Shown here in pieces: positions 1 to 18,849 of a stretch of DNA of 64,000 bases. A program made the translations under genes and the position numbers. How positions within the stretch are numbered: the stretch's first letter is position 1; each line of letters opens with the position of its first letter. Location: NCBI RefSeq assembly GCF_009914755.1, contig NC_060938.1. One strand, 5' to 3'. Origin of the DNA: the human T2T-CHM13v2.0 reference genome, Homo sapiens. The notes beneath the pieces were generated by a model. That model was not told the origin of the DNA. It ran no database searches and was given only the letters and a program-made list of their open reading frames with translations.

Positions 1-330
1 AACTTTGTAAACTTGCCTCCATTGCTTTCTGGTGTTAAACCATTGCTGTGGACAAGCCTGGGGACAGCTGCTTTCCCTTGGATGGATGAACTTTTTTTTT
101 TTCCTGCTTAGATTTCCTGATTCTTTCTTTAGTCTTGAACGTTGGTGACTTTACCGGGTTATGACTCAGTCACTATTTTTATTCATTAGTTTTTCTGAAT
201 CATAGTATGCCTTCTTGATGAGTAGATTTAATCGTTCCTTTGTTTCAAGGATTTATTCATTTTATGAGCACTTTTCTACTCCAGGTGTTGGTTTTTTCTT
301 TGGTGAAATAATCTGTTTTGTTCATTTCAT
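1..330 (-). mobile_element. Ancient L1M/HAL1-like LINE fragment
   Basis: T-rich sequence (ctccattgctttctggtg...ttgctgtggacaagcctg...tctttctttagtcttgaacgttgg) resembling the reverse strand of old L1/HAL1 ORF1-region consensus; highly diverged, boundaries approximate. Confidence 0.5.
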
Positions 331-1140
331 TGTGTACTGGAGGAGAAGAAAGTCTGTCATCTGGCCCCTTGCTGCCATCTGTCTGCACGTCAGTCTGTTG
401 TCATTTGCACTGTGCATTTGTCTATTTAAAACAATCCTACCCAGATGCCCCCTCCTCAGTGTCACCTTCCACCCTGGCAGGATGCCTTATGGCAATGCCA
501 CTTCTGAGATGGTCGTGGGAGTCAGCACCACTGGCCAGGTATGTGAATTTTCTGCTAACAATGGAAGAGTTTGAAAAACCATATATGAAGTACCATTAAC
601 CCCAAGCATGCAATCTATCCTTAGGAAGACTTCCTGGAAATTATGCTCACCTTTGGGGATGAGGCCATGATTCTGAGGTCAGTGCCATGCCATGGTCTAA
701 TAAAGTTTGCATTCAATGCTGTTTGTTTCTGTATGATCAATATTGTAAAGTCAGTCTCTTTGTCATGGACTCAGCTTTGGAGGGTTCCTGGACACAAGGC
801 CTGTGTAAGGAAAGGATCATTACTGTCAGCCTCGATGCTAATGTGAGATGAGGGAATGTGCCCTGCTCTGATCCAAATGCTGAGTTTCTGTGCACTTGGC
901 CTCTCCACCATCAGGTTCCCTGGCAGTGCTCCTTTAGACATGCACCCACCTTGGCAAAGACATTGAGGTCTGGATGGCTGCAGGGTCCGGGATGGAATGG
1001 TTGAATACAGGGCGTGTGCTTTCTTCTCAACCCTCTTGCAGTCCGTCTGCTAACCGTCAATGTTCACTGTCTCCTAGGGGGACTTCCTGGAGGAGGCCAA
1101 CTTTGGAGAACAGGCATTGACATTGGGTCTGCGCTAGCGT

Positions 1141-1224
1141 GTGGTACTTGAAGATAGGTTATCCGTGTTGCCTTCGCTTTATTTGTGACGAATCATACAC
1201 GGTTGACCTATTTTTCAGTACCAA
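1141..1224 (+). ncRNA. MIR154: pre-miR-154
   Basis: Hairpin with 5p TAGGTTATCCGTGTTGCCTTCG (1155-1176) and 3p AATCATACACGGTTGACCTATT (1191-1212), matching recalled mature sequences; family loop TTCGCTTTATTTGTGACGAAT. Confidence 0.97.
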
Positions 1225-1430
1225 ATCCCGCCTTGGAGGGCTTCCTGGAGCGGAGTCTTACTTCAGGGTGTCAGCTCCTCTCCAGGGTAAGGAAGGGGAC
1301 CATTGACCATAGCCGACCCAGCAGTGTGCCCTGGCCCTAACCCTGTGTGTGCCCCGTCCTTGGGGAGGTTTCTAGAGATGGTGCCACCTTTGGGGAAGAA
1401 GTGGAGCTTTTCCTATCAGAGCTACTCTGT

Positions 1431-1510
1431 GGTACTGGTGGAGAGGTCTTCCATGATGCATTCGATTTATTTTTTGACCAATCCTACATAGTGGACTCTT
1501 TTGAAAGCAT
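1431..1510 (+). pseudogene. Degenerate miR-154-family hairpin (miR-154b-like)
   Basis: GGTACT start, 5' arm AGAGGTCTTCCATGATGCATTCG (1442-1464), loop ATTTATTTTTTGACC, 3' arm AATCCTACATAGTGGACTCTTTT (1480-1502), then the AAATC..CCTT spacer motif; colinear with MIR154. Confidence 0.75.
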
Positions 1511-1958
1511 TAAATCTAGCCTTAAAGCACCCTCGGGTGGTGCCGAGTTTAGGAACTAGAACTGGTGTCTGAATGCCTGAACGCACGGCGAAGCTGACAG
1601 TGTGCACACTCTTCTTGGTGGGTCGTGCACCTGCAGGCGTCCTGCTTGCTTACCATGGCAGTTTCCTCGAAAGAGGCGGCAGTTCCCTCATCGGCTCACT
1701 GCATGTTTGACAAGACACCGTCTTGCTGTCTTCCCTGCTGCCCTCTCTTCATGTATCACAGATGGTGCTCTGCAGAGCTCTCTGCTGTGGCACTTCCCTC
1801 CCTGAATGGCTTCCTGCAAGAGGTGCTAATTGCAAGTAAGGGATGGAGTGCGGCCCGGACCGCAGAGCTTATTTCGTGGGTGGTGTGTTGCCACCTTCCT
1901 GACTCTCAGTATCCCGTCCGTCCTCAGGCCTGCTGCTGGGACGCGCTGGAAGCGAGCA

Positions 1959-2060
1959 CCCAAGTCAGGTACTCGAATGGAGGTTGTCCATGGTGTGTTC
2001 ATTTTATTTATGATGAGTATTACATGGCCAATCTCCTTTCGGTACTCAATTCTTCTTGGG
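1959..2060 (+). ncRNA. MIR496: pre-miR-496
   Basis: Hairpin with mature 3p TGAGTATTACATGGCCAATCTC (2014-2035). Confidence 0.96.
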
Positions 2061-2559
2061 AAACGTCACGAGGGGAAAGCCCAGCCGGCACCTGCGCAGG
2101 GTAAGGAAGTGGATCACCTCCGCATGACAGGTGCTCTCTGTGTGACTTACATCACTTGGCTCATATCCCGGCCATCATTAGGAGGAATTCCCCGAAATGA
2201 TGCTGACGTTTTAGTTGACATGGTGGTCTTCTAGTCGCATCCTTGAAGACTCGTCAGTGAATAAACCACATTTAGTCAACCTTTTTAGGTGTGAAATCAT
2301 CTTGGCTGTGTGGCACACTTTAGGGAAAGGAACTCCTGGCTGAATGGAAGACATCCACATTACGCCCTCAAATACCTTATCTTCTGGGTGACCTCTGGGA
2401 AGCAAGGGGTGAAGGGGGTTTCCTCAGCAGTGAGAATTAATGTTGTTTAAAGACACATTTCCATGGCACGACTCGGTTATTCCTACTGCAAGACGAGAAT
2501 TGTTAATAGCATTTATTACTACCTTATGTTGCCAGCTGTGTGCCCTTGGAAAATCCCTT

Positions 2560-2840
2560 CACCTATCAGCTCTCTGGGCCTCAGTCTCTTCCTCTGTAAA
2601 GCAGGGTTAACAGCGGAGTGGAAACGTGCTCTTTGTGAAGTGTCTAGACAGCGTCTGGCACGTGGCTGTAGGATAAGCATTGTTTCTGAGGATGGTCATT
2701 ATATGAATGTTATGTCATCTGCACTCATTGTCCTCTCGCCACTAGAATGGAAGCTCCCTGAGGGCAGAGTCCTTGTCTGTTTTGCCTGGTGCTGTGTCGC
2801 CAGATGTGCACAGTAGGTGTGATGCTGAATGAATGAATAG
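2560..2840. mobile_element. MIR fragment followed by L2 3' end
   Basis: MIR core (tctctgggcctcagtctcttcctctgtaaa) then L2 terminus (ccactagaatggaagctccctgagggcagag...gctgaatgaatgaat). Confidence 0.6.
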
Positions 2841-3435
2841 GCAGCGTGACCTGTTTTCTTGGTTGAACTCTCTTTGAGGCCTCCTGGAATGGAGTGCATG
2901 GAGTACAGTCACCTGAGCCTGTGCTGTCCCTGTGACGCAGCCCCACCCACCCTCTGAGGATGCTGCGCTGGACGAGGAGTCGCCAGCCTTCAGGTCGGGT
3001 CCTCCCTCAAACCCCTGTAGGCTGGACTGAACACGGTCACATGGTTCATTGGCAGCCCCCTTCTCTGTGTGAAATCCTGCTTCAGAGACTTCCAGAGGAG
3101 ATACCGGCTCTGGAGGTGGACCTTGGTGTTCCAGCCCCTCTAGGGTAGGTGACCAGGGTCTGACTCTAGCTCGGGCTGACCTGTGATGTGTGTGTGCATA
3201 GCCTCGCCCCCACTGCCTGCTCCAGGGCTACAGAAGCTGGTCCATGACCAACCATGTTCTGACCACTGCCTGGGGGGCTTCTCGGAGGTAGAGAGAGAGA
3301 GAGAGCAAGAGGGGAGAGAGCGAGCCAGCAAGCCAGCGAGCCTGCAGCTGGAGTCAGCAGGGAGGTCCCGCAGGCAATGCCGCCTTTGGTGAAGAGGCAT
3401 CTCGGTGTGTTCTTGCCCGTGCTGATGTTTGACCC

Positions 3436-3504
3436 TTGAGCAGAGGTTGCCCTTGGTGAATTCGCTTTATTTATGTTGAATCACACAAAGGCAACTTTTG
3501 TTTG
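3436..3504 (+). ncRNA. MIR377: pre-miR-377
   Basis: 5p AGAGGTTGCCCTTGGTGAATTC (3442-3463), 3p ATCACACAAAGGCAACTTTTGT (3480-3501). Confidence 0.97.
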
Positions 3505-4831
3505 AGTATCAAATCCTGCTTGGGATGGCTTCCGGGACCCAGTGGCAAGCTCAGGGGCATCTACACCCCTCCCGTGAGCAAGAATGGACGGGGTAGACGT
3601 GGGTGGTCTGCCCTCTGCGGTCCTCTGCGGTGGATGAGAACAGATGTCGCTCAGAGAACACAAGCTTCATTCATGATGGGGGCGGGGCTCGCGGCCCGGG
3701 GAGGATGGCGTTGGTGTCGCGTCGGCTTTAGCTCTTACCCTGGACCCTGTCTCTTTACATCACCATTTTGGCTGTGTTGATCCCAAAGACATTTTGACTC
3801 CACCATTTTTTTTTCGGAAGGTATTTGACCTCGCGGATACACAAAGAGCTCACACTTGGCAGGGTCTGTGACGAGTCTGCAGCCCCAGACCCCCATCTAG
3901 CTCACAAGCACTGTGCTTCTTTCTGCACCTTTCCTTGTCTCTATCTTTCTCTTTCTATCCCCCAACCAAACATTGTTCCCAATTTTCTCCTGGGTTATGA
4001 AACAAATAGAGGCTATCAGTATCTCATCCCATTTGTATTAAATAATACTGATAGAAATAATCAACACAAAATAAAACTAAAAACAGCTGAAACGGCACAG
4101 TGCTAAATGTGTTCAGTTGACTACAAATTGGCAGAGGAATCCAATTTTCTTGACAACATTTCAGCTGTGACATTTGACCTGGGGAAATAGAAAGCTGCCG
4201 ACGTGGCAGCCATGGAAGGAAATTCACGGTGGCGGCGGTGATAAACAGTGATATTTGATGTAGACAAGAACACATTGAGGAATCAAATCTTCATGCAGAT
4301 TTTTAAATGGAAAAAAATTGATCCTAATGAAAATGATTTGGGGAAAATAACAAGGGAAATAAAAGAAATGAAAACAGCTCAACAGCGCGGTCAGGAAAGC
4401 TAAACAGGGAATTGGATTAGTATAATGGCATTGGCTCTGAAAAACACGTTTCTATGAATATCAATGTTGGTACAATTCTTGTGAAGATGGTTACATTTGT
4501 GCGTGTTTACAGTGGAGTTGGTGGGGTCAGTAGGAACCTAGGGTCAAAAAATGGGATACAGTCTCCCCCTTTATGCAGTTGATCTTTTCTTGCTGCCCCA
4601 AACCTTCCCGAGAGCTTCCCGGAAAGGTGTGCTGACTTCAGGCGTGACACACTGGTAAGGCGTCCTCCCGGGGATCTGGGTGCATGTTGTCCCCAGAGCA
4701 TTCATACGTAAGTGACAGGCATCACCTGGTCTCCCTCCATCCCCACGGAGGGTTCTGGGTGAGACGCTGACTCCGGAGGGAAGCAGAAGTTCTACGGTCA
4801 GTGGGGTCTGGTCTTTCAGGACAGTTGCTTC

Positions 4832-5265
4832 TGTGAACTCAGAAAATCTGAGACAGCTCTTAGTTAATTTAGAAAGTTTATTTTGACAAGGTTGAGGATA
4901 CACCCGTAACACAGCTTCAGGAAGTACTGTGGTCAAGGCACAGCTTGGCTTTATACATTTTAGGGAGACATGAGACATCATTCAGCACATGTAAGAAGTA
5001 CATTGGTTTTGTCTGCAAAGGTGGGACAACTTGAAGCGAAGGCAGGAAGGAGGGAGCTTCCAGGTCACAGACAGGTGATACACAAATGATTACATTCTTT
5101 CGCGTTTCTCATGAGCCTTTCCAAAGGAGGCAAATCAGATACGCATCTGTCTCAGTGAGCAGAGGGATGACTTTGAATGGAATGAGAGGCAGGTTTATCC
5201 TGAGCAGCTTCCAGCTTGAGTTTTCCTTAGTGATTTTAGGGGCCCGCGATAACTTTCCTTTCACA
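4832..5265 (-). mobile_element. Solo ERV1 LTR, MER4A/MER4A1-like
   Basis: TGTGAA...TTCACA termini; 4-bp target-site duplication CTTC (4828-4831, 5266-5269); reverse complement matches recalled MER4A1 consensus. Confidence 0.85.
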
Positions 5266-5881
5266 CTTCCAAGGCTATTGATGAACACACAGGCATCCAG
5301 GAACATTCTGGGGTTCAGTCCTTCCTCAGACTCTGCTGTTGATACCTTACATGGTTCCATGCTGGCCCCAAGGACGTGCCCTTCGTTGGTGCCGAATGTC
5401 ATTTGGTCATAGAGGCTGAAAGTCATTCTGGAGTTGATGTTTCCAAGGTCAAAAACCTTGCTGGGGCTGTGGAAAGAGCTCGTTGTTTGCTGGCCTGCTT
5501 TGTTGGTGACCAGCATTGCACATGGCTTTCTTTTCAGATCAAACCCTACCTGGAGAATTTCCAGAAGCAACAGCACCCTCAGGAGGCGGCCTGCAGCCGG
5601 AGCCCTCTCCAGGGCAGGTGCCTGAGGGCCGCCCATGGGACAGGCCCGATTGTACCCACGGTGCATGTCATCTGTTCCACTCCTGCTGACTCCGGTGCGT
5701 TCCGGGACCACCTTGGGAGGTGATGCCTGCCCCAGGAAGGAGGCTCTGATGCAGGTCAGTGCCCATGGCTCCTGAAGGGAAGTCGTCTGTGACATCTTTT
5801 CTTTCTTTACAGCAGGCCTCGCATGGCTGGCCTCTTGCTCCACTTGTAGCAAGGCGCAGAGGGCTCTCTGAGCTCATGCCA

Positions 5882-5965
5882 ACGTCAGGGAAAGGATTCT
5901 GCTGTCGGTCCCACTCCAAAGTTCACAGAATGGGTGGTGGGCACAGAATCTGGACTCTGCTTGTG
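5882..5965 (+). ncRNA. MIR541: pre-miR-541
   Basis: 5p AAAGGATTCTGCTGTCGGTCCCACT (5891-5915), 3p TGGTGGGCACAGAATCTGGACT (5935-5956). Confidence 0.96.
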
Positions 5966-6686
5966 GCATCCATCGTCTGGCCCGATGCTTGCTGGCTGCC
6001 CGCTCCAGGAGGCACCTTCTGGGTGTTCTCTGAGTCTGGGGAAGGTTGGGTTCTGAGGTCAGGGCTGCCCTGACCCTTGTGAAGAGAAGACATCTGTGAC
6101 TCACCTGCTTTCTTCTGCTGCATTTATCCCCCCAGTCCCTTATTTTGAATGTCTCACTTGCTTTATGAGGCTAATCAGATGGTCAGCCAGCTGTTGATAA
6201 CTGTGAAGTTACTCTTTGAGGGATCCTGGGGTGATGCCTCTGTGGGCTGGAGATGGTGCTGGTGAGACCGCAGGTCTGGGGTCAGCGTTGTGCCCCGTTG
6301 AGCTCCCGCCAAAGGAATCCTCTGCTGGGAGGGAGGCTCTGTGCTTGTGCAGGGGTCCCTACAGGGTCACCCCCTCTCAGGGTCTGGGAATGAAAAGCGG
6401 GTGCGAGCAGGGTTTCATTTTCATCTTTAGCAAGGTGCCCAAGGAAGGTTGCCGTCTTTTCAGTATAAGATCCTACCTGGGTCTTGCACTCAACTTCTGG
6501 GAAGAGTCTCTAGATTCATTCTGGAAGGGGTTGGAATCGTTGGACTTGGTGATTGGGAACGTCCTTGGAGAGTGTGAGGCTCTGGGCTCTGAATGCCCAG
6601 ACCTTGTGCTGCCCTTGGGGGAGGGTCTTCTGCAAGCACAGCCGCCTGCAAGCATTCACCTTAGTCCGAGCATCTGAGCCTCTCCA

Positions 6687-6765
6687 TGGTACTCGGGGAG
6701 AGGTTACCCGAGCAACTTTGCATCTGGACGACGAATGTTGCTCGGTGAACCCCTTTTCGGTATCA
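6687..6765 (+). ncRNA. MIR409: pre-miR-409
   Basis: 5p AGGTTACCCGAGCAACTTTGCAT (6701-6723), 3p GAATGTTGCTCGGTGAACCCCT (6733-6754). Confidence 0.97.
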
Positions 6766-6833
6766 AATTCCACCAGGGAGGCCGTCTTGGAGGCTGGGGC
6801 ACCTCGGGGAAGGACGCCGGCATCAGCACCATT

Positions 6834-6924
6834 CTGGGGTACGGGGATGGATGGTCGACCAGTTGGAAAGTAATTGTTTCTAATGTACTTCACCTGGTCC
6901 ACTAGCCGTCCGTATCCGCTGCAG
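6834..6924 (+). ncRNA. MIR412: pre-miR-412
   Basis: 5p TGGTCGACCAGTTGGAAAGTAAT (6852-6874), 3p ACTTCACCTGGTCCACTAGCCGT (6887-6909). Confidence 0.96.
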
Positions 6925-6984
6925 CCTGTGGGGCCTGCGGGCCGGGGAGCCGATCGCGCTTCAGCTCAGCGCCTTTCCTGGTAC

Positions 6985-7054
6985 TTGAAGGGAGATCGAC
7001 CGTGTTATATTCGCTTTATTGACTTCGAATAATACATGGTTGATCTTTTCTCAG
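6985..7054 (+). ncRNA. MIR369: pre-miR-369
   Basis: 5p AGATCGACCGTGTTATATTCGC (6993-7014), 3p AATAATACATGGTTGATCTTT (7028-7048). Confidence 0.97.
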
Positions 7055-7298
7055 TATCAAATCTCACCTTGGAGGACCCGTTGGAGATGAAGCCCTTTTG
7101 AGGGTAGGAGCAGGACGGGTGCTTTGGAGTCGCTGCCTCAGTGGGGCCTGGTCACCGAGAGTGGGCCGGGCAGGGGTCTCTTTCCTGTCTCTGTGTCTTC
7201 TCACCTTTGATGTCCCATCCGTCCTCAGGACTGCTTCCCGGGGGCAGCGCTGGCACCACGGGACGCGGCAGCCACGTTCTTGAGCCGATGGCACTCTG

Positions 7299-7378
7299 GG
7301 TACCTGAGAAGAGGTTGTCTGTGATGAGTTCGCTTTTATTAATGACGAATATAACACAGATGGCCTGTTTTCAGTACC
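7299..7378 (+). ncRNA. MIR410: pre-miR-410
   Basis: 3p AATATAACACAGATGGCCTGT (7348-7368); family loop TTCGCTTTTATTAATGACG. Confidence 0.97.
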
Positions 7379-7819
7379 GCTACCGCCCGGTGGTGTGCGG
7401 GCGCCACGCCTGAGGCGGGACTTTCCAGGGTACGTGAATGCATGGGCTGGTGTGACATTTGTCATCCTTTCCCCTGACCCCCGCCATTGAATCATTTTGG
7501 GAGAGCTTTCGGGGGGCCATGTGGACTTTGGGGAAGATGCTAGGGTTGTGCACTGTGGTGGGGGGCGGTCATGAAGCTGATGAGCAATGGTGACGGGGCT
7601 CAGTCTGTTTTTCATGGCCAGTGTCATCGAGGCAGAGGACACGGGGGAGCTAGTCCCGCTGGAAGGCATCCTGCTGGAAGGCCACCCACCCCTCGCCAGG
7701 ATGTTGGGGGCGGCTGCATGCATTCCCTGCACCTGGGCTGCCTTCTGCTCATCTCAGTGCTGTGAGACCCTGGGTGGGAGCTGGTGCCTTGGGTGGCCGT
7801 GAGCGTGTGCTGCTCCTTG

Positions 7820-7900
7820 TGGTGCCTGAGGAGAGGTGGCCTGTGTTGCATTCACAGAAATCATGACACACAAGACACGAGCGGCCTCTCTTCAGTATCA
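7820..7900 (+). ncRNA. Candidate or degenerate miR-323-like hairpin between MIR410 and MIR656
   Basis: Well-paired lower stem CTGAGGAGAGGT/GCCTCTCTTCAG; 3' arm CACAAGACACGAGCGGCCTCT (7869-7889) is 16/21 identical to recalled miR-323a-3p; followed by GATCCCACCT spacer motif. Expression unknown. Confidence 0.6.
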
Positions 7901-8110
7901 GATCCCACCTGCATGATTCCTGCACCTGCTGATGTCGGGGAGGTCCGGTTGCGCGCCCTGTGGGCCCCCAGAGGCATGGCTGGTGGCCGAGCACGCGCTT
8001 GACTTCCACCTGCAGCCCTGTGCTGGCCTCCATCCTGGAGGCGGGTGGGTGGCAGGGCCCTTCCCTGTGGAAGAAGCCTCCTCCCTGGAGTCAGTGCTGC
8101 TCAGTGGTAC

Positions 8111-8188
8111 CTGAAATAGGTTGCCTGTGAGGTGTTCACTTTCTATATGATGAATATTATACAGTCAACCTCTTTCCGATATCGAATC
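8111..8188 (+). ncRNA. MIR656: pre-miR-656 (last annotated miRNA of the cluster)
   Basis: 3p AATATTATACAGTCAACCTCT (8153-8173). Confidence 0.96.
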
Positions 8189-9471
8189 CCACCTTGGATG
8201 CCTTCCTCTTTGCTGTCAACTCCAGGCAGCAGCTGGCTCTGCGCTGGTTGACCCTGTGGACTTTGTGTAGGACCTGTGTCACTTGGCCTGTTAATTTTCC
8301 AGCTCCACTCTGTTCTGGGGGGCTTTGGAAGTGTGACGGAATGGCATCCCCAATTCCAGTGTCAGCGGGAGCACCCGCCATGCCCTTGCTTCCGGTTGGC
8401 ACATCCCCCAGGCTGGGCTGGCTCTCAGCTACCCGATGCTTATGTCATATTTGCACCCCTGGCCTGCCCAGACTACAGGAAGATGACCAGAGGCCTGTTT
8501 GCAGCTGACCTGGAGACTTAGTGACTCCAGAACATGCTGCCCATGCCCAGGGTCCAGGGCTGAAGGCAAGGAGCACCTCAGGAGTGACCCCAAAGAATGA
8601 GCTAAGGCTGTCCTTTATCACTCATTGTTGATCAGTGAGCTCCTGGGCTCGGGAGATCTTCCTGAGCTGGGCTCCTGTCATCCCCTAGTTGAGACGTCGC
8701 TGCCTTGGAAGTCACAGCCTGTGCCTGCCCTCCCCCTTGTCCTCCTCCTCGGGACCGCTCCTCTCCATGCCTAGCATGGGAGTGGGGATCCCTGGCACCA
8801 TCCCTCTGGGCTGCCTGCTCCCACTCTCCCTCAGCACCCCTCTTCCCCAGCCCCTGGGCCACAGCCCTGCTGGAGAGGCCGCCCCACAGGCTAGGTCCCT
8901 CCAGCCTGTGGCACTTGGGTCTCCCTCCAGTGCCCCTCCCTCTGCCAGGGAGAGCATTTCCAAGTGCAGAGTCCAGCTGTTTAACTCCGCTGCCCAGGGC
9001 ACCTCTGCAGGCCCCTTCCCTTGGGCTTGGTACCAAAATGATCCGAGGACCCCCCAGGCCCTCAGAGTGGCAGCCCCCCTCTTCTTTTGGAGCCACAGCC
9101 TATCCCCCACGTGTTTTCATCCTTCATTCTGGCCTTGCACATGCCCCTCCTTCCGGAGCTGGGTCCTGGGCCGCCCTGCTCTGCCCTCGGCTGCCTCCTG
9201 TCCAGGCTCTGGCCCTTCCTTCCTTAAAGGCCCACATCCTTTGCATTTTCCTTTCCCAGGGGTTCACAATTCCCAAGGGGATGGAATGGCTCTTGTTCAG
9301 CAAGGTCATCCCTGATAACCCTATAAAAGCAGCTCCCCTTGCCTCTTCCCTATCACGTTCTACCAGTTGCCCCGTTACTGTTTTCTTCCTAGCTTACAGT
9401 TCTCTGAAATTGCCTAATGTTAATGTCTACCTTCTTTGTGCCCTAGACTGTGAGATTTCTCATTGGCAGAA

Positions 9472-11296: not shown

Positions 11297-14200
11297 CCCA
11301 CCCTTGTCTGTGTACCACCACTCTGCACAGACACGTTGGCTGGTGCAGTCCTGGAGACCCACGGAGCTCACGGTCGTCAGGGGTCCTCAAGGATTCAGAG
11401 AACCCCCAAATGTCAGGGCTGCTCCCTTCTTGTCCTGCCTCTCTGCTCACACCCTTGGACAGGTAAGAAAACTGAGGTCCACAGAGGGCAGGGTGCATTG
11501 CTGTGGCTTTTGTTCTGAGCACTGTCTCCCCAGCTTTGGGGTTGAGACTCTGGGGTCAAGACCCACCTCTGATGAACGAGCGGCTTCCTTCTTTGTAAAA
11601 ATTGAGGCGACCCAGACCAAGAAGGGCTGCAAAATCACCAAGCCAGGACCTCAATACCCAAGGGGCTGGGGTTTCGGCCACCCTGTGGCAGAGCTTTTAG
11701 AAGCCAGGGCCCTTGGCTCGGCAGTGCTGGCTCATAGTAGGTGCTTAGTTCATGCCTGTCTCCTTGGATGAAATCTGACCATAGACACCAGTGCAAAGCA
11801 GGTGTTCAACACAGGAGGGTGTACTGAACCCGATCTCTCTATCACCAGGAGGAAGCACACGGGAGGCACTCAGAGAACGTTTGTGGAATGAATAAATAAA
11901 AGCATATTTTGAGGGAATAAAGAAGCAGAAAAACAAAGAAGAATCTGGGGAAGATGGGCATAAATCTCCACCAAGTGCTGCCAAGGCTTCCCAGGCGAGG
12001 CTGCTGAAAAGACCCTGTGGAGGTAGAGGGACAATTTGTCATGGATGGGAATGGGCTTGAGGGCCGGGAAGCAGGGCATGATGGGGCCTCATTCATCATT
12101 TTCCCGTTATCCCAGCAGCGTGCAGGGGAGCAGGTACAGCACCTGCCTGTGCAGCTGCACTGCCTGCCCGAAGGCCCTAGGCCCTGGGCCAAGTGAGTGA
12201 CCAGAGGGGGACTGGGAATGGAAAGGACCTCAAGGAAGGACAAGCTGAGCTCTGGGAGGCCACCTCCTCCAGGAAGCCTTCCCTGATTCATCCTTCACAG
12301 GCAGTCTCAATTTGCAGTCAGATATCCACTGCTCTGATTCTTAGATCAGCAAGTATCTCCCTACCCAGACTGCAGGCTCTGCTGGGGCCGCGGCTGTTTC
12401 TGACTTGTGCACAATGGCATCCCTGTACCTAGCACAGGACTGAGTCCAGAGAAAGTGCTCAGTGATGCTTGTTGGCCTTGTCTCTCCTCTGTGGGCAGCA
12501 CAGGGCACCCGGCGGGTCCTGAGGGTGTGGACATCCCACGGCAGAGCCTGCGGTTGATCCCGACCATGAACCAAGGCCTGGGGCGGGGGTGGCCACATCA
12601 GGCCACTTCTGCCAGGAGAGATGTGGCTGTGAGCTGGGGGTCTGGCCTGTCCCCGGAGGCATTCCTTGGGTTTGCATCCATCAGAAGATCCACTGGTTGC
12701 CTCTATTTGGGCCTGGAGCAGGGATGGGATTTTTCCAAGGTACATGGGGTCTAGGGGAGACCCAGGCCCATTATTAGGGTCGGTCTTGAGAAGGCAGAGA
12801 TCAGGCCACCACTTTATTTGGTGTAGCTCCTCGCTCCATTGGTGTGTGCTGAGTGAATGAATGCATCAGGGACTCCTGCTTCCTGCCCAGAGCCCCCTCC
12901 GCACCCCACACAGCCTTGCTCCAAGGAGAAGGGGTCAGAGCCAACTGGACAGTGCTACAGCATGGGGAGCCTCGACCAGGCTCGGCCCTCGACGATGGGA
13001 TAGGCAGACAGCCCCCTGTGCAAGGCAGCTAGCTTGCAGGGTCCCGAGAGGCCAAAGGCCCTGGTCTTTCCTGGGGCAAGAGGCTGCTGAGAAGGTGCAC
13101 AGAGCCTGGGTGCAGGAAACCATCCAGAATGCTGCTTCCCGCCATCTGTGAGATCTTCGTTTTCTCTAACACTCAAAAATAGATGTTTCTGTTATGCTCT
13201 CTCGTTGGCAGGGGAGCGGCAGGACCTGCCAAGGCCTGGGGGAGCCCGCCAGCCTGCTGAGTTCTACTGTACAAACAGTTGGGGAGGGGGCGCTGTCTCT
13301 GTTAACTTGAAATTCCCCGATCAGTAAACATGCCAATTTAAAGTGTAATTAACTCAGGCCGGAAAAAATTCAGATTTGGACTGCTTTTCACAGTTGAGGT
13401 TGTTTTTCTTTTATTTATTTATCTCTTTCCGGGTGTGGTGGTATCTGTGGCTGGTTTTAGCCAGGAAAAATAGAAGGGGGACCGGGTGGGGAGGGGGCTG
13501 GTTGGGAGAGGAAAGGCTGGAAGGAAAGGAAGAGAAACGGGCGGGTGGCCTGACACCCAGCAGCCAGGTGTCTATAGGTTTTCTGTCCTGGGAGGGGGCT
13601 GTCAGGGTGATGCCCGCCTGCAGAGAGGGGGTCATTCTGCGAGGTTGGGCTGCAGACCCCTGTGCCAGCGGGCCTGGTGATTCGGAAATGATGGGGCACT
13701 GTGGAGAGACCCCAGGAAAACACCCAGTGCTGCTTTTGACATTCTCTCTCCATCTCCCCTTTCAGCGGCTGCTCTGCCTGGGATAAACACATTTCAAGAG
13801 TCTCAGTCCCCGCTTTGCCACCATCTCCTCCTCTGATCTCCTTTCCTGCTTCAAAAGACTCCAGAATCTTCTCGGTTCTCAGAGAAGGCTGAATCCACCT
13901 ATGACCTAGTGGGAGCACCCTGTGCCGAAACTGTTTACCTTCTGGTCCCCGGAGCCATGGGTCACGACCTGGGCCTCATGTAGGCCCGCTCCTCAGCAGA
14001 CCCCAATCTGCGGCTTCTCCCACCTCACTGGGGAAGAAGGAGAGCCCTGGGGATGTGGAGAAGCCACCCCCCACCCCGCCACATCCCCCACATCTTACAG
14101 AATCTCGATTGAATCCCCGGGGGCACATCCCTCAGCAGGACAGCAACAGTCTTTGCCGCAGCCTGGGGAGGGCTGTGCTGGGGATGAGCGCCGAGTGGCC

Positions 14201-17300: not shown

Positions 17301-18849
17301 CACTTGAACCCTCTGGGCTTCCGTGTCCTCATAATAGGATCTGGGTTCTTGAGAGAGAGACACCAAAGCATGCCCGGAACAGAGCCCAGCAGCCCACTCC
17401 TCCTCCGTCACCCCAGGCCTCTCTGCCAACCTTCTCTGCCTCTCCCATTTCAGCCCCATACCTGGTTTAGACCCTAGGGGGATGCTGGGTGCACAGAACA
17501 GACCACCTGCGCTTGGGCCATGGCTGCTGGGTACTGGCCTCTTCCCTAATGAGGGAGGAAGGAGTGAGGAGAGCCCTCAGAGGGGCCATGGGCAGTCCCG
17601 GGGTGCAGAGGCTGAGTCCCGAGGAAGTGGGGGCTCCTGCCGCCTCTCCGCAGGGTCCTGGCTGTGTCAGGTGGGGCTGTTGTTTCTCTCGTCTGCTGTC
17701 ATCTTCCCTTTGCCATTTCCCTCGCGGGGCTGACATTTTCCTGGCAGGTCCAGGAGGAAGGAGGGTGACAGCTGCACAGACAGCCCCGGTGAGGGGGCAA
17801 GCCCGGCCTGTACTAAGGCTGTCTCTTCCCCCCGCTTGGGGAAAAGAACGGGTGCAGACCACCCCTTCCATGGAGGGGTAACTTCATGGGTTTCCCCCGA
17901 AAACCCCAAAACTTGGAACTGCTGCGGGGTTTCCACCTACCCTGCCTGTGTCCGGCACAGAGCAGCCTCCAACGGTCGCCTAAAAGGCGGGCAGCAGTCC
18001 CGTTTGTCTCCAATATCCTCCCTCTCCAGGATTCTCAGAGCACTTGTGATGGCAGCAAACTGAGTCTCAGCGAGGGGTTCACTGGCCCTGCACGGCTCCC
18101 GGCACTTTGTAACCTATAACGAGACGAGGACCGTGAGGATGTATTCATATTTCACGCATTCAGCTTCTATTTAACTATGTCTCCGAGCACGCGTGCTCTG
18201 AACTATGACCCCACAGAGAGACCACCACCTCCCCGCAACTGCCTGGCAGGGCGCACCAGGCTGCAGAGACAAAGGAATGGGACCTTTAGAAGCCTGGACC
18301 AGTTACTGGCACTGGGCGCCCACCTCTGGGTTGGGGAAAATGCCGTGTGCCCAGTGCAGCCCCAAGATGCTTCCTGGCCAAGAGGACCCCGTTCGTCAAG
18401 GCCTTTACACCCCTTATCTCCCCCAATGCCCTTTCCTGGCAGCCAGCCAGTGGTTCCACCTTTCCCCTTTTCAGCCAAAAAAAAGTAAACGCAGGCCAGA
18501 GAAGCCACCTGCCTGCGGTCCCACAGCCCGAGGTGGAGGCGGAGGGGGTGCTGCCACTCCAAATCTGGGCGCCCCCACCCCAGTGCCCCCCTCCCGAGAA
18601 TAGAGCCCAGAGCCAGAAGAAATCCGCCCTTGGGGCCAGGCTGGGTGGACATGGAGAGGGGGTAGAGGAATGCCGGCGGGAGGTACTGAAGGCTGCGGGG
18701 GTGAGGGGGGTTGAGGGGTCCCCAGGGGTCCCTGCCCTGCAGTTCTTTGGGGTTCACAGATTGGAAAAGCTGGTGCCCTTCTGAGGGTGGGTGGGGGTGG
18801 CGGCAGAGGCAGAATAAAACCCCCTCCCCTAGAGCCGGGGTGGCTCAGC

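What the first reader, a model, noticed from the sequence alone, without database searches (positions are those of the whole stretch)
600..8210. The miRNA cluster is a degenerate tandem array of hairpin plus ~45-nt spacer motif, with more units than annotated miRNAs
Seen: a motif approximating AAATCy(n)CCTTGGAGGnCTTCCTGGAnnnnTGCynmCTTTGGGGAAG follows most hairpins (1223, 1512, 2048, 3511, 6765, 7059, 7901, 8184). It also occurs where no miRNA is annotated (about 612, 1071, 1355, 1795, 2173, 3072, 4600, 5540, 6470, 7492). The hairpins share GGTACyTGA at the base, a TTCGCTTTATT..TGACGAAT loop and TTTTCAGTAyC at the 3' base, while the seeds vary (AATCATA, AATAATA, AATATAA, AATATTA). Established: this eutherian cluster is thought to have arisen by amplification of a hairpin-plus-motif unit. 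Inference: orphan motif copies mark dead or unrecognised hairpins, so the array records miRNA birth and death. Motif persistence beside dead hairpins may mean the motif has its own role in RNA processing.
Basis: partly seen in the sequence, partly recalled or inferred. Interest (0 to 1): 0.7.

Follow-up and report, generated by a model that had tools for sequence, protein, structure and literature searches.

The report
Decayed microRNA repeat array, mostly fossils
This stretch is the end of the well-known chromosome 14 microRNA cluster, a worn-down tandem array in which most units are dead hairpins; the shared spacer is likely a leftover apart from a short processing signal, and miR-541 likely arose by pairing that spacer with half of a dead hairpin.

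Summary
The observation largely holds. The motif is the first ~50 nt of a ~70-80-nt linker in a ~155-nt array of alternating miR-154-type (A) and miR-379-type (B) hairpin slots: about 172 detectable units in 45 kb, about 30 in this window against 9 annotated miRNAs. Orphan copies mark dead hairpins. The motif does not outlast them: beside dead slots, motif and hairpin are equally decayed (p=0.83), and it has no shared fold. Mainly its first ~13 nt are better kept beside live hairpins; they hold a CNNC (SRSF3) element 16-18 nt after the Drosha cut. The array story is in print (Glazov 2008, recalled, not held). One extra: miR-541 sits 37 nt out of register; its 3p arm is a B-type 5p arm and its 5p arm is linker, a likely hairpin-shift birth.

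The parts
464..8311 (+). 3' end of the miR-379/miR-656 (C14MC, MIR-154/MIR-376) tandem array; ~155-nt unit = ~82-nt hairpin slot + ~50-nt motif + ~20-30-nt spacer; about 30 detectable units here, 9 annotated miRNAs
   Evidence: the array runs ~36.7 kb upstream of the window and is absent from 9 further upstream 10-kb loci
534..1561 (+). near-continuous chain: B slot 534 (weak), motif 611, A slot 692, motif 767, motif 913 (weak), B slot 982, motif 1065, MIR154 (A, 1141), motif 1223, shortened slot, motif 1350, A slot 1429, motif 1512
   Evidence: map; scores
1223..1272 (+). motif copy after MIR154; CNNC starts at +16 and +17 from the annotated 3p end
   Evidence: 34.4 bits
1429..1511 (+). unannotated mir-154-type hairpin, structurally dead in human
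   Evidence: Rfam mir-154 45 bits, cut-off 52; fold z +0.54
1792..1841 (+). orphan motif copy; no slot detected upstream
   Evidence: 18.2 bits; slot p=0.19
2098..2179 (+). dead B-type slot after the MIR496 linker; donor-like word at its 5' base (2101)
   Evidence: 18.8 bits; fold z +0.6
3072..3121 (+). orphan motif copy; weak B slot follows at 3142
   Evidence: 22.7 bits
3511..3560 (+). motif copy after MIR377; CNNC at +15
   Evidence: 29.2 bits
4515..4649 (+). slot that still folds as one long stem, plus orphan motif at 4600
   Evidence: fold z −2.13; motif 17.0 bits; slot p=0.04
5461..5897 (+). chain of dead slots A 5461, B 5611, A 5765 with motifs 5541, 5693, 5848; slot spacing 150-154 nt
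5882..5965 (+). MIR541, 37 nt out of array register: 5p arm 5891-5915 lies on the motif tail and spacer, 3p arm 5935-5956 on the 5' arm of a B-type slot starting at 5919
   Evidence: fold z −2.79 in the shifted register vs +0.05 in the array register
6686..7108 (+). MIR409 (A) - motif 6765 - MIR412 (B) - decayed linker - MIR369 (A) - motif 7059: three live slots in register
7215..7538 (+). motif 7215, MIR410 (A, 7297; no motif after it), weak B slot 7410, orphan motif 7489
7819..7900 (+). unannotated mir-154-type hairpin that still folds like a pre-miRNA stem with an enlarged loop; candidate unrecognised or recently dead miRNA
   Evidence: Rfam 42.2 bits; profile 51.7 bits; −36.7 kcal/mol, z −3.31
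8104..8311 (+). MIR656 (A), partial motif 8184, dead B slot 8230: last detectable unit

Best explanation
This is the 3' end of a decayed tandem array of ~155-nt units (hairpin slot plus linker) in which most hairpins are dead; the linker motif is likely a neutral leftover of the amplification except for its first ~13 nt, which carry a CNNC element predicted to help SRSF3 place Drosha on the live hairpin just upstream. Shown: array, period, A/B alternation, dead slots in register, equal decay of dead hairpin and motif, CNNC at +16 to +18. Inferred: amplification of an A-linker-B-linker dimer of ~300 nt, then loss of pairing in most slots. Because the ancestral unit already had a CNNC at the right distance, each new copy would have been born processing-competent, and selection then kept stem and proximal flank only where the miRNA was useful. 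Established knowledge: CNNC 16-18 nt from the cut recruits Drosha through SRSF3 (PMC6004053, passages).
For: Motif enrichment with independent training. 126 copies in 45 kb; 55 of 125 gaps are 120-179 nt, with harmonics near 300, 450 and 600. 36 of 44 adjacent A/B slot pairs alternate. Dead slots sit upstream of orphans and do not fold. Equal decay beside dead slots. No consensus structure in 42 or 89 copies; fold z near 0. CG/TG/CA mixtures at two or three column pairs, as expected of CpG decay. The live-minus-dead difference is +0.22 to +0.33 for windows starting at columns 1-8, peaks at the CNNC window (col 6), and lies between −0.11 and +0.10 from column 13 on. CNNC at +16 to +18 in 7 of 9 annotated miRNAs; 32 of 42 live vs 35 of 74 dead units, p=0.002; background 17%; A family 20 of 25 vs 9 of 21, p=0.011.
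Against: All tests compare paralogues in one genome; no cross-species conservation was available. 'Live' upstream means an Rfam cut-off match, not verified expression. Columns 13-28 show a small live excess in some tests (p=0.02 against the dead-unit consensus; B family p=0.039). The CNNC excess is not significant in the B family (8 of 12 vs 25 of 51, p=0.22). Neighbouring proximal columns are raised almost as much as CNNC, so the signal is a proximal flank effect, not CNNC alone. Alignments next to dead hairpins are less sure, though the ungapped subset still gives 31 of 37 vs 26 of 44, p=0.014.
Confidence: 0.72

Rival explanations
1. The whole ~50-nt motif is a functional RNA element (protein-binding or cluster-assistance signal) kept even beside dead hairpins.
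For: The motif scores higher after live than after dead hairpins (median 22.3 vs 10.3 bits, p=7e-6); small live excess in columns 13-28; the 155-nt period lies in the 120-250-nt range given as optimal for cluster assistance (PMC13686912, passages).
Against: Beside dead slots it is no better kept than the dead hairpin; no invariant column and no structure; distal columns equal in live and dead units; absent after miR-410 and miR-412, which are annotated miRNAs.
Confidence: 0.12
2. The motif is wholly neutral; the apparent retention beside live hairpins comes from better alignment and from training on live units.
For: Whole-motif identity to family-specific dead-unit consensus does not differ significantly (A 0.622 vs 0.593, p=0.12; B p=0.09).
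Against: The excess sits in the first ~13 columns, survives a dead-only consensus (A family p=0.003) and an ungapped subset, and coincides with a known element at its known distance.
Confidence: 0.12
3. The unit was an exon-intron repeat: the linker acts as a small exon and B-type slots as intron-like units, so splicing competes with Drosha across the array.
For: Donor-like words at the 5' base of 12 of 63 B-type slots vs 1 of 46 A-type and about 3% of random positions; branch-point-like word near the 3' end of 23 of 63 B vs 2 of 46 A slots; mouse miR-412 (B-type) overlaps a used 3' splice site of Mirg (PMC8465124, PMC13686912, passages).
Against: Donor density in the cluster (1.41 per kb) equals that outside (1.41) and on the − strand (1.56); the donor matrix was recalled and approximate; the given annotation has no exons in the array; junction placement is reported as not conserved across mammals (PMC13686912, passage).
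Confidence: 0.05

Closest known systems
miR-379/miR-656 cluster repeat unit (Glazov et al. 2008, Mol Biol Evol 25:939; not held, content recalled; seen only as cited in PMC6346411, PMC2500034, PMC7564603, PMC2408620)
   Same: Same locus. Recalled: tandem amplification of a precursor plus a ~45-nt motif, and an original array of more than 250 precursors, most now inactive. The span measured here would hold 288 slots at 155 nt.
   Different: I could not check whether that paper reports the A/B alternation, the CNNC placement, the equal-decay test or the miR-541 register shift.
MirGeneDB MIR-154/MIR-376 cluster; Rfam clan CL00149
   Same: 33 MIR-154 and 5 MIR-376 human genes with lineage-specific losses and gains (10.1101/2024.09.27.615356, passage); window hairpins hit RF00641.
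   Different: MirGeneDB lists MIR-134 and MIR-541 as families of their own and Rfam puts mir-541 in no clan. Here miR-134 scores as an in-register B-type slot (36.2 bits, left out of training) and miR-541 as a shifted one.
CNNC / SRSF3 pri-miRNA element (PMC6004053, passages)
   Same: CNNC starts at +16 to +18 in 7 of 9 annotated miRNAs.
   Different: Here it is part of an amplified repeat unit and survives in 35 of 74 dead units; binding not tested.
Hairpin shifting (de Wit et al. 2009, not held; definition seen in PMC3308325, passage)
   Same: One arm lost and a new arm born from flanking sequence; fits miR-541.
   Different: That review cites it for worm miRNAs; here the new arm comes from the array's own linker.
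C19MC and C2MC imprinted miRNA arrays (PMC6346411, passages)
   Same: Large imprinted arrays shaped by birth and death.
   Different: Those grew with Alu or B1 elements and, for C19MC, repeated exons; this unit is a short head-to-tail hairpin-linker repeat.

Membership tests
miR-379/miR-656 (C14MC) tandem array | mir-154-clan hairpins on one strand at 14q32 | tested here: met
   all 46 RF00641 matches among 57 scored candidates lie within chr14:95.258-95.303 Mb (lower bound)
miR-379/miR-656 (C14MC) tandem array | repeated hairpin-plus-motif unit with a regular period | tested here: met
miR-379/miR-656 (C14MC) tandem array | excess of inactive precursor units | tested here: met
   74 of 116 hairpin slots are neither over an Rfam cut-off nor annotated in register; 16 of 18 unannotated window slots do not fold
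miR-379/miR-656 (C14MC) tandem array | eutherian-only, maternally expressed | not testable with these tools
   from literature (PMC6346411, PMC2408620, passages)
CNNC/SRSF3 element | CNNC 16-18 nt 3' of the Drosha cut | tested here: met
   7 of 9 annotated miRNAs
CNNC/SRSF3 element | SRSF3 binding and stimulation of cleavage | not testable with these tools
   needs CLIP or processing assays
Structured cis-regulatory RNA (whole motif) | conserved secondary structure with covariation | tested here: not met
   0 predicted pairs in 42 copies; fold z near 0 in 89 copies
Hairpin-shifted miRNA (miR-541) | one arm homologous to the opposite arm of a paralogue | tested here: met
   miR-541-3p starts 16 nt into the B slot, as miR-412-5p does; B 5' half p=0.0004; holds without miR-654 in training, p=0.0014
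Hairpin-shifted miRNA (miR-541) | partner arm derived from flanking sequence | tested here: met
   5p arm aligns to motif tail and spacer; spacer p=0.007, upstream motif p=0.0015
Hairpin-shifted miRNA (miR-541) | order of events shown by outgroup species | not testable with these tools
   no other mammalian genome available
bona fide miRNA (unannotated hairpin 7819-7900) | stable single stem-loop | tested here: met
   z −3.31, 0 of 200 shuffles as stable; loop enlarged
bona fide miRNA (unannotated hairpin 7819-7900) | mature and star reads with precise ends | not testable with these tools
   no small-RNA data

The most novel reading that the evidence does not exclude
The linker is raw material for new miRNAs: miR-541, listed as a family of its own, was born inside the array by hairpin shifting. 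The 5' arm of a dying miR-379/654-type hairpin became its 3p arm, and the linker upstream became its 5p arm. With miR-134 also an in-register B-type slot, both families that MirGeneDB sets apart in the cluster descend from the same 155-nt unit, whose built-in CNNC made each new copy processing-ready.
Probability: 0.65. Interest if true: 0.48.

Novelty: already known. Interest (0 to 1): 0.3.

Why it matters
The main finding re-derives a published model of how this placental-mammal miRNA cluster arose, so it is not new. The added value is modest but concrete. It narrows the 'motif has a role' idea to a ~13-nt CNNC-bearing flank that is easy to test. It gives a slot-by-slot map for assigning miRNAs lost in humans but alive in other mammals. 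And it offers a clear mammalian candidate for hairpin shifting (miR-541), which bears on how new seeds arise and on family nomenclature.

Tried and rejected
Whole-motif RNA structure: none. STAT/BCL6-like palindrome: the motif core looks palindromic, but TTCNNNGAA occupies its columns in only 2 of 116 units; cluster density is 0.62 vs 0.33 per kb outside; not pursued. Basal UG at −14: 3 of the 8 miRNAs with an annotated 5p arm; not a consistent feature. Splice-unit model: donors are in register but not enriched. Motif in the 90 kb of upstream loci tested: background level only. Elsewhere in the genome: one 78-nt linker query found only itself, an insensitive test, so the linker's origin stays open. 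Site 6470 rejected as a motif copy; 2173 unsupported alone. Mapping dead human slots to sheep miR-154b/3955/3957/3958: these names are expressed in lamb muscle (PMC9677349, passages) but no positions were seen, so no assignment is made. Glazov 2008, Seitz 2004 and de Wit 2009 are not held. mir-544 (upstream) was dropped from training as unrelated to the unit (judged by eye). Ten literature searches listed no paper whose title, shown abstract or passages read describe the motif, its CNNC or the origin of miR-541. Only 30 of 108 hits were listed, most subscription papers are not covered, and no supplements were read.
Full report
Locus. The window starts inside the imprinted 14q32 miR-379/miR-656 cluster. 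Rfam finds the 9 annotated hairpins over their cut-offs and two more mir-154-type hairpins below cut-off, at 1430-1512 (45 bits) and 7820-7900 (42.2 bits). I fetched the 50 kb upstream and located its hairpins with Rfam, so that all profiles could be trained outside the window. 34 of the 35 + strand matches over cut-off were used; mir-544 was dropped.

Is the motif real? The upstream-trained profile gives 20 peaks of 12 bits or more on the + strand of 1-8300, none on the − strand, 0.7 on average in 60 dinucleotide shuffles and 0.83 per 8.3 kb in the rest of the window. nhmmer and an Infernal sequence model agree on the stronger copies (the latter included 7 window copies in training). The motif is clear after 5 of 9 annotated miRNAs.

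Anatomy. Over the whole cluster there are 126 motif copies in 45 kb. 55 of 125 gaps fall at 120-179 nt, and pairwise distances peak again near 300, 450 and 600. The unit is a ~82-nt hairpin slot, the ~50-nt motif and a ~20-30-nt spacer, so the motif is simply the front of the linker between slots. Hairpin-only profiles find 116 slots (42 live, 74 not); the same scan gives 1 and 3 hits in 55 kb of flanking + and − strand. Counting either part, 172 units are visible, 30 of them in this window; the span would hold 288. Slots come in two types, miR-154-like (A) and miR-379/654/412-like (B), and 36 of 44 adjacent A/B pairs alternate, which points to a ~300-nt dimer as the amplified block (inference). 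The array begins near window −36.7 kb and ends near 8.3 kb; nine further upstream 10-kb loci show background only.

Do orphans mark dead hairpins? Yes. Of 19 motif copies of 10 bits or more that do not follow an annotated miRNA, 10 have an in-register hairpin-like slot upstream at p<0.05, against about 1 expected; 9 do not. The 9 annotated hairpins fold at z −2.4 to −7.0. Of 18 unannotated slots, 16 lie between −1.0 and +1.5, and two still fold: 7819 (z −3.3) and 4520 (z −2.1). These two are the only candidates for unrecognised or recently lost miRNAs.

Does the motif have its own role? Three tests say mostly not. (a) To avoid ascertainment bias I took each motif copy and scored the next slot and the next motif. 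Where the slot is not live (104 cases), hairpin and motif identity exceed the null equally (0.551 vs 0.470 and 0.540 vs 0.456; p=0.83). Where it is live (22), the hairpin reaches 0.764 and the motif 0.600. (b) There is no invariant column and no consensus fold. (c) Columns 29-50 are equally decayed after live and dead hairpins. The motif does score higher after live hairpins (median 22.3 vs 10.3 bits), but the excess sits mainly in the first ~13 columns and peaks on a CNNC. With annotated arm ends, a CNNC starts at +16 to +18 in 7 of 9 miRNAs; miR-377 has it at +15 and miR-412 at +13. By alignment it is present in 32 of 42 live and 35 of 74 dead units (p=0.002; background 17%). That is the position at which SRSF3 recruits Drosha (PMC6004053, passages). 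Against: the B family alone is not significant (p=0.22), neighbouring columns are raised almost as much, columns 13-28 show a small live excess in two tests, 'live' upstream is an Rfam proxy, and no cross-species data were available.

miR-541. In its annotated register miR-541 does not resemble either hairpin type (−7.8 and −19.9 bits). A B-type slot scores 15.1 bits starting 37 nt further on, at 5919, continuing the chain 5461, 5611, 5765 at 150-154 nt spacing. A joint motif-spacer-slot-motif profile scores 26.4 against −23 ± 8 in 40 shuffles. miR-541-3p starts 16 nt into the slot, exactly where miR-412-5p starts in its slot, and miR-541-5p lies on the motif tail and spacer. The call holds without miR-654, or without miR-654, -668 and -134, in training (p=0.0014, 0.0028). 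The slot's old 3' half (p=0.12) and the downstream motif (p=0.17) are not significant alone. The shifted hairpin folds (z −2.8), the in-register one does not (z +0.05). This fits hairpin shifting as defined in PMC3308325 (passage); the order of events is inferred. MirGeneDB 3.0 treats MIR-541 and MIR-134 as separate families (passage); miR-134 scores 36.2 bits as an in-register B slot when left out of training. Searches listed no paper describing this origin, but their coverage is limited.

Splice-like words. Donor-like words sit at the 5' base of 12 of 63 B slots (1 of 46 A slots; about 3% at random), but overall donor density is not raised (recalled approximate matrix). I read them as inherited sequence that is sometimes used, as for mouse miR-412, whose hairpin overlaps a 3' splice site (PMC8465124, PMC6097652, PMC13686912, passages).

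What is known. Tandem duplication with birth and death is stated in PMC2500034 and PMC6346411 (passages), and lineage-specific losses in MirGeneDB 3.0 (passage). Glazov et al. 2008 is not held; from recall it reports the hairpin-plus-motif unit and more than 250 original precursors, most inactive. The finding is therefore already known. What I could not find in print are the equal-decay result, the CNNC localisation and the miR-541 shift; Glazov's text or supplements, which I did not see, may contain some of them.

Verdict. Observation confirmed with corrections; dead-unit inference supported; independent role of the whole motif not supported. Interest 0.3, carried mainly by miR-541 and the sharpened test.

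Noticed in passing
window 5842-6050: MIR541 is 37 nt out of array register; its arms map to linker and to a B-type 5' arm (likely hairpin shift).
   Followed up: yes
L012:6071-6143 (window −3929): mir-134, listed as its own family, scores as an in-register B-type slot (36.2 bits, left out of training).
   Followed up: partly
window 3260-3396: Two partial motif copies (3266-3291, 3362-3396) lie either side of a (GA)n tract just upstream of MIR377.
   Followed up: partly
window 539, 1287, 2101, 3145, 4655, 7430: Donor-like splice words, several at the 5' base of B-type slots; cluster-wide donor density is not raised.
   Followed up: partly
L010:6699-6780, L010:6379-6460, L009:6614-6695, L010:8447-8528: Strong upstream hairpin relics under the Rfam cut-offs (profile 72.5, 48.9, 54.6, 57.3 bits); candidates for miRNAs lost in human or unannotated.
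   Followed up: no
window 2280-2880, 3700-4500 and 4780-5300: Gaps in the array with few or no units, probably insertions or heavier decay; not identified.
   Followed up: no
window 18352-18401 (+) and 12252-12295 (−): Best motif-like scores outside the array (20.6 and 15.2 bits); no hairpin slot was sought there; possibly chance.
   Followed up: no
window 6979-7059 (−): Rfam mir-3578 matches over cut-off antisense to MIR369 (87.8 bits); likely a reflection of hairpin symmetry.
   Followed up: no
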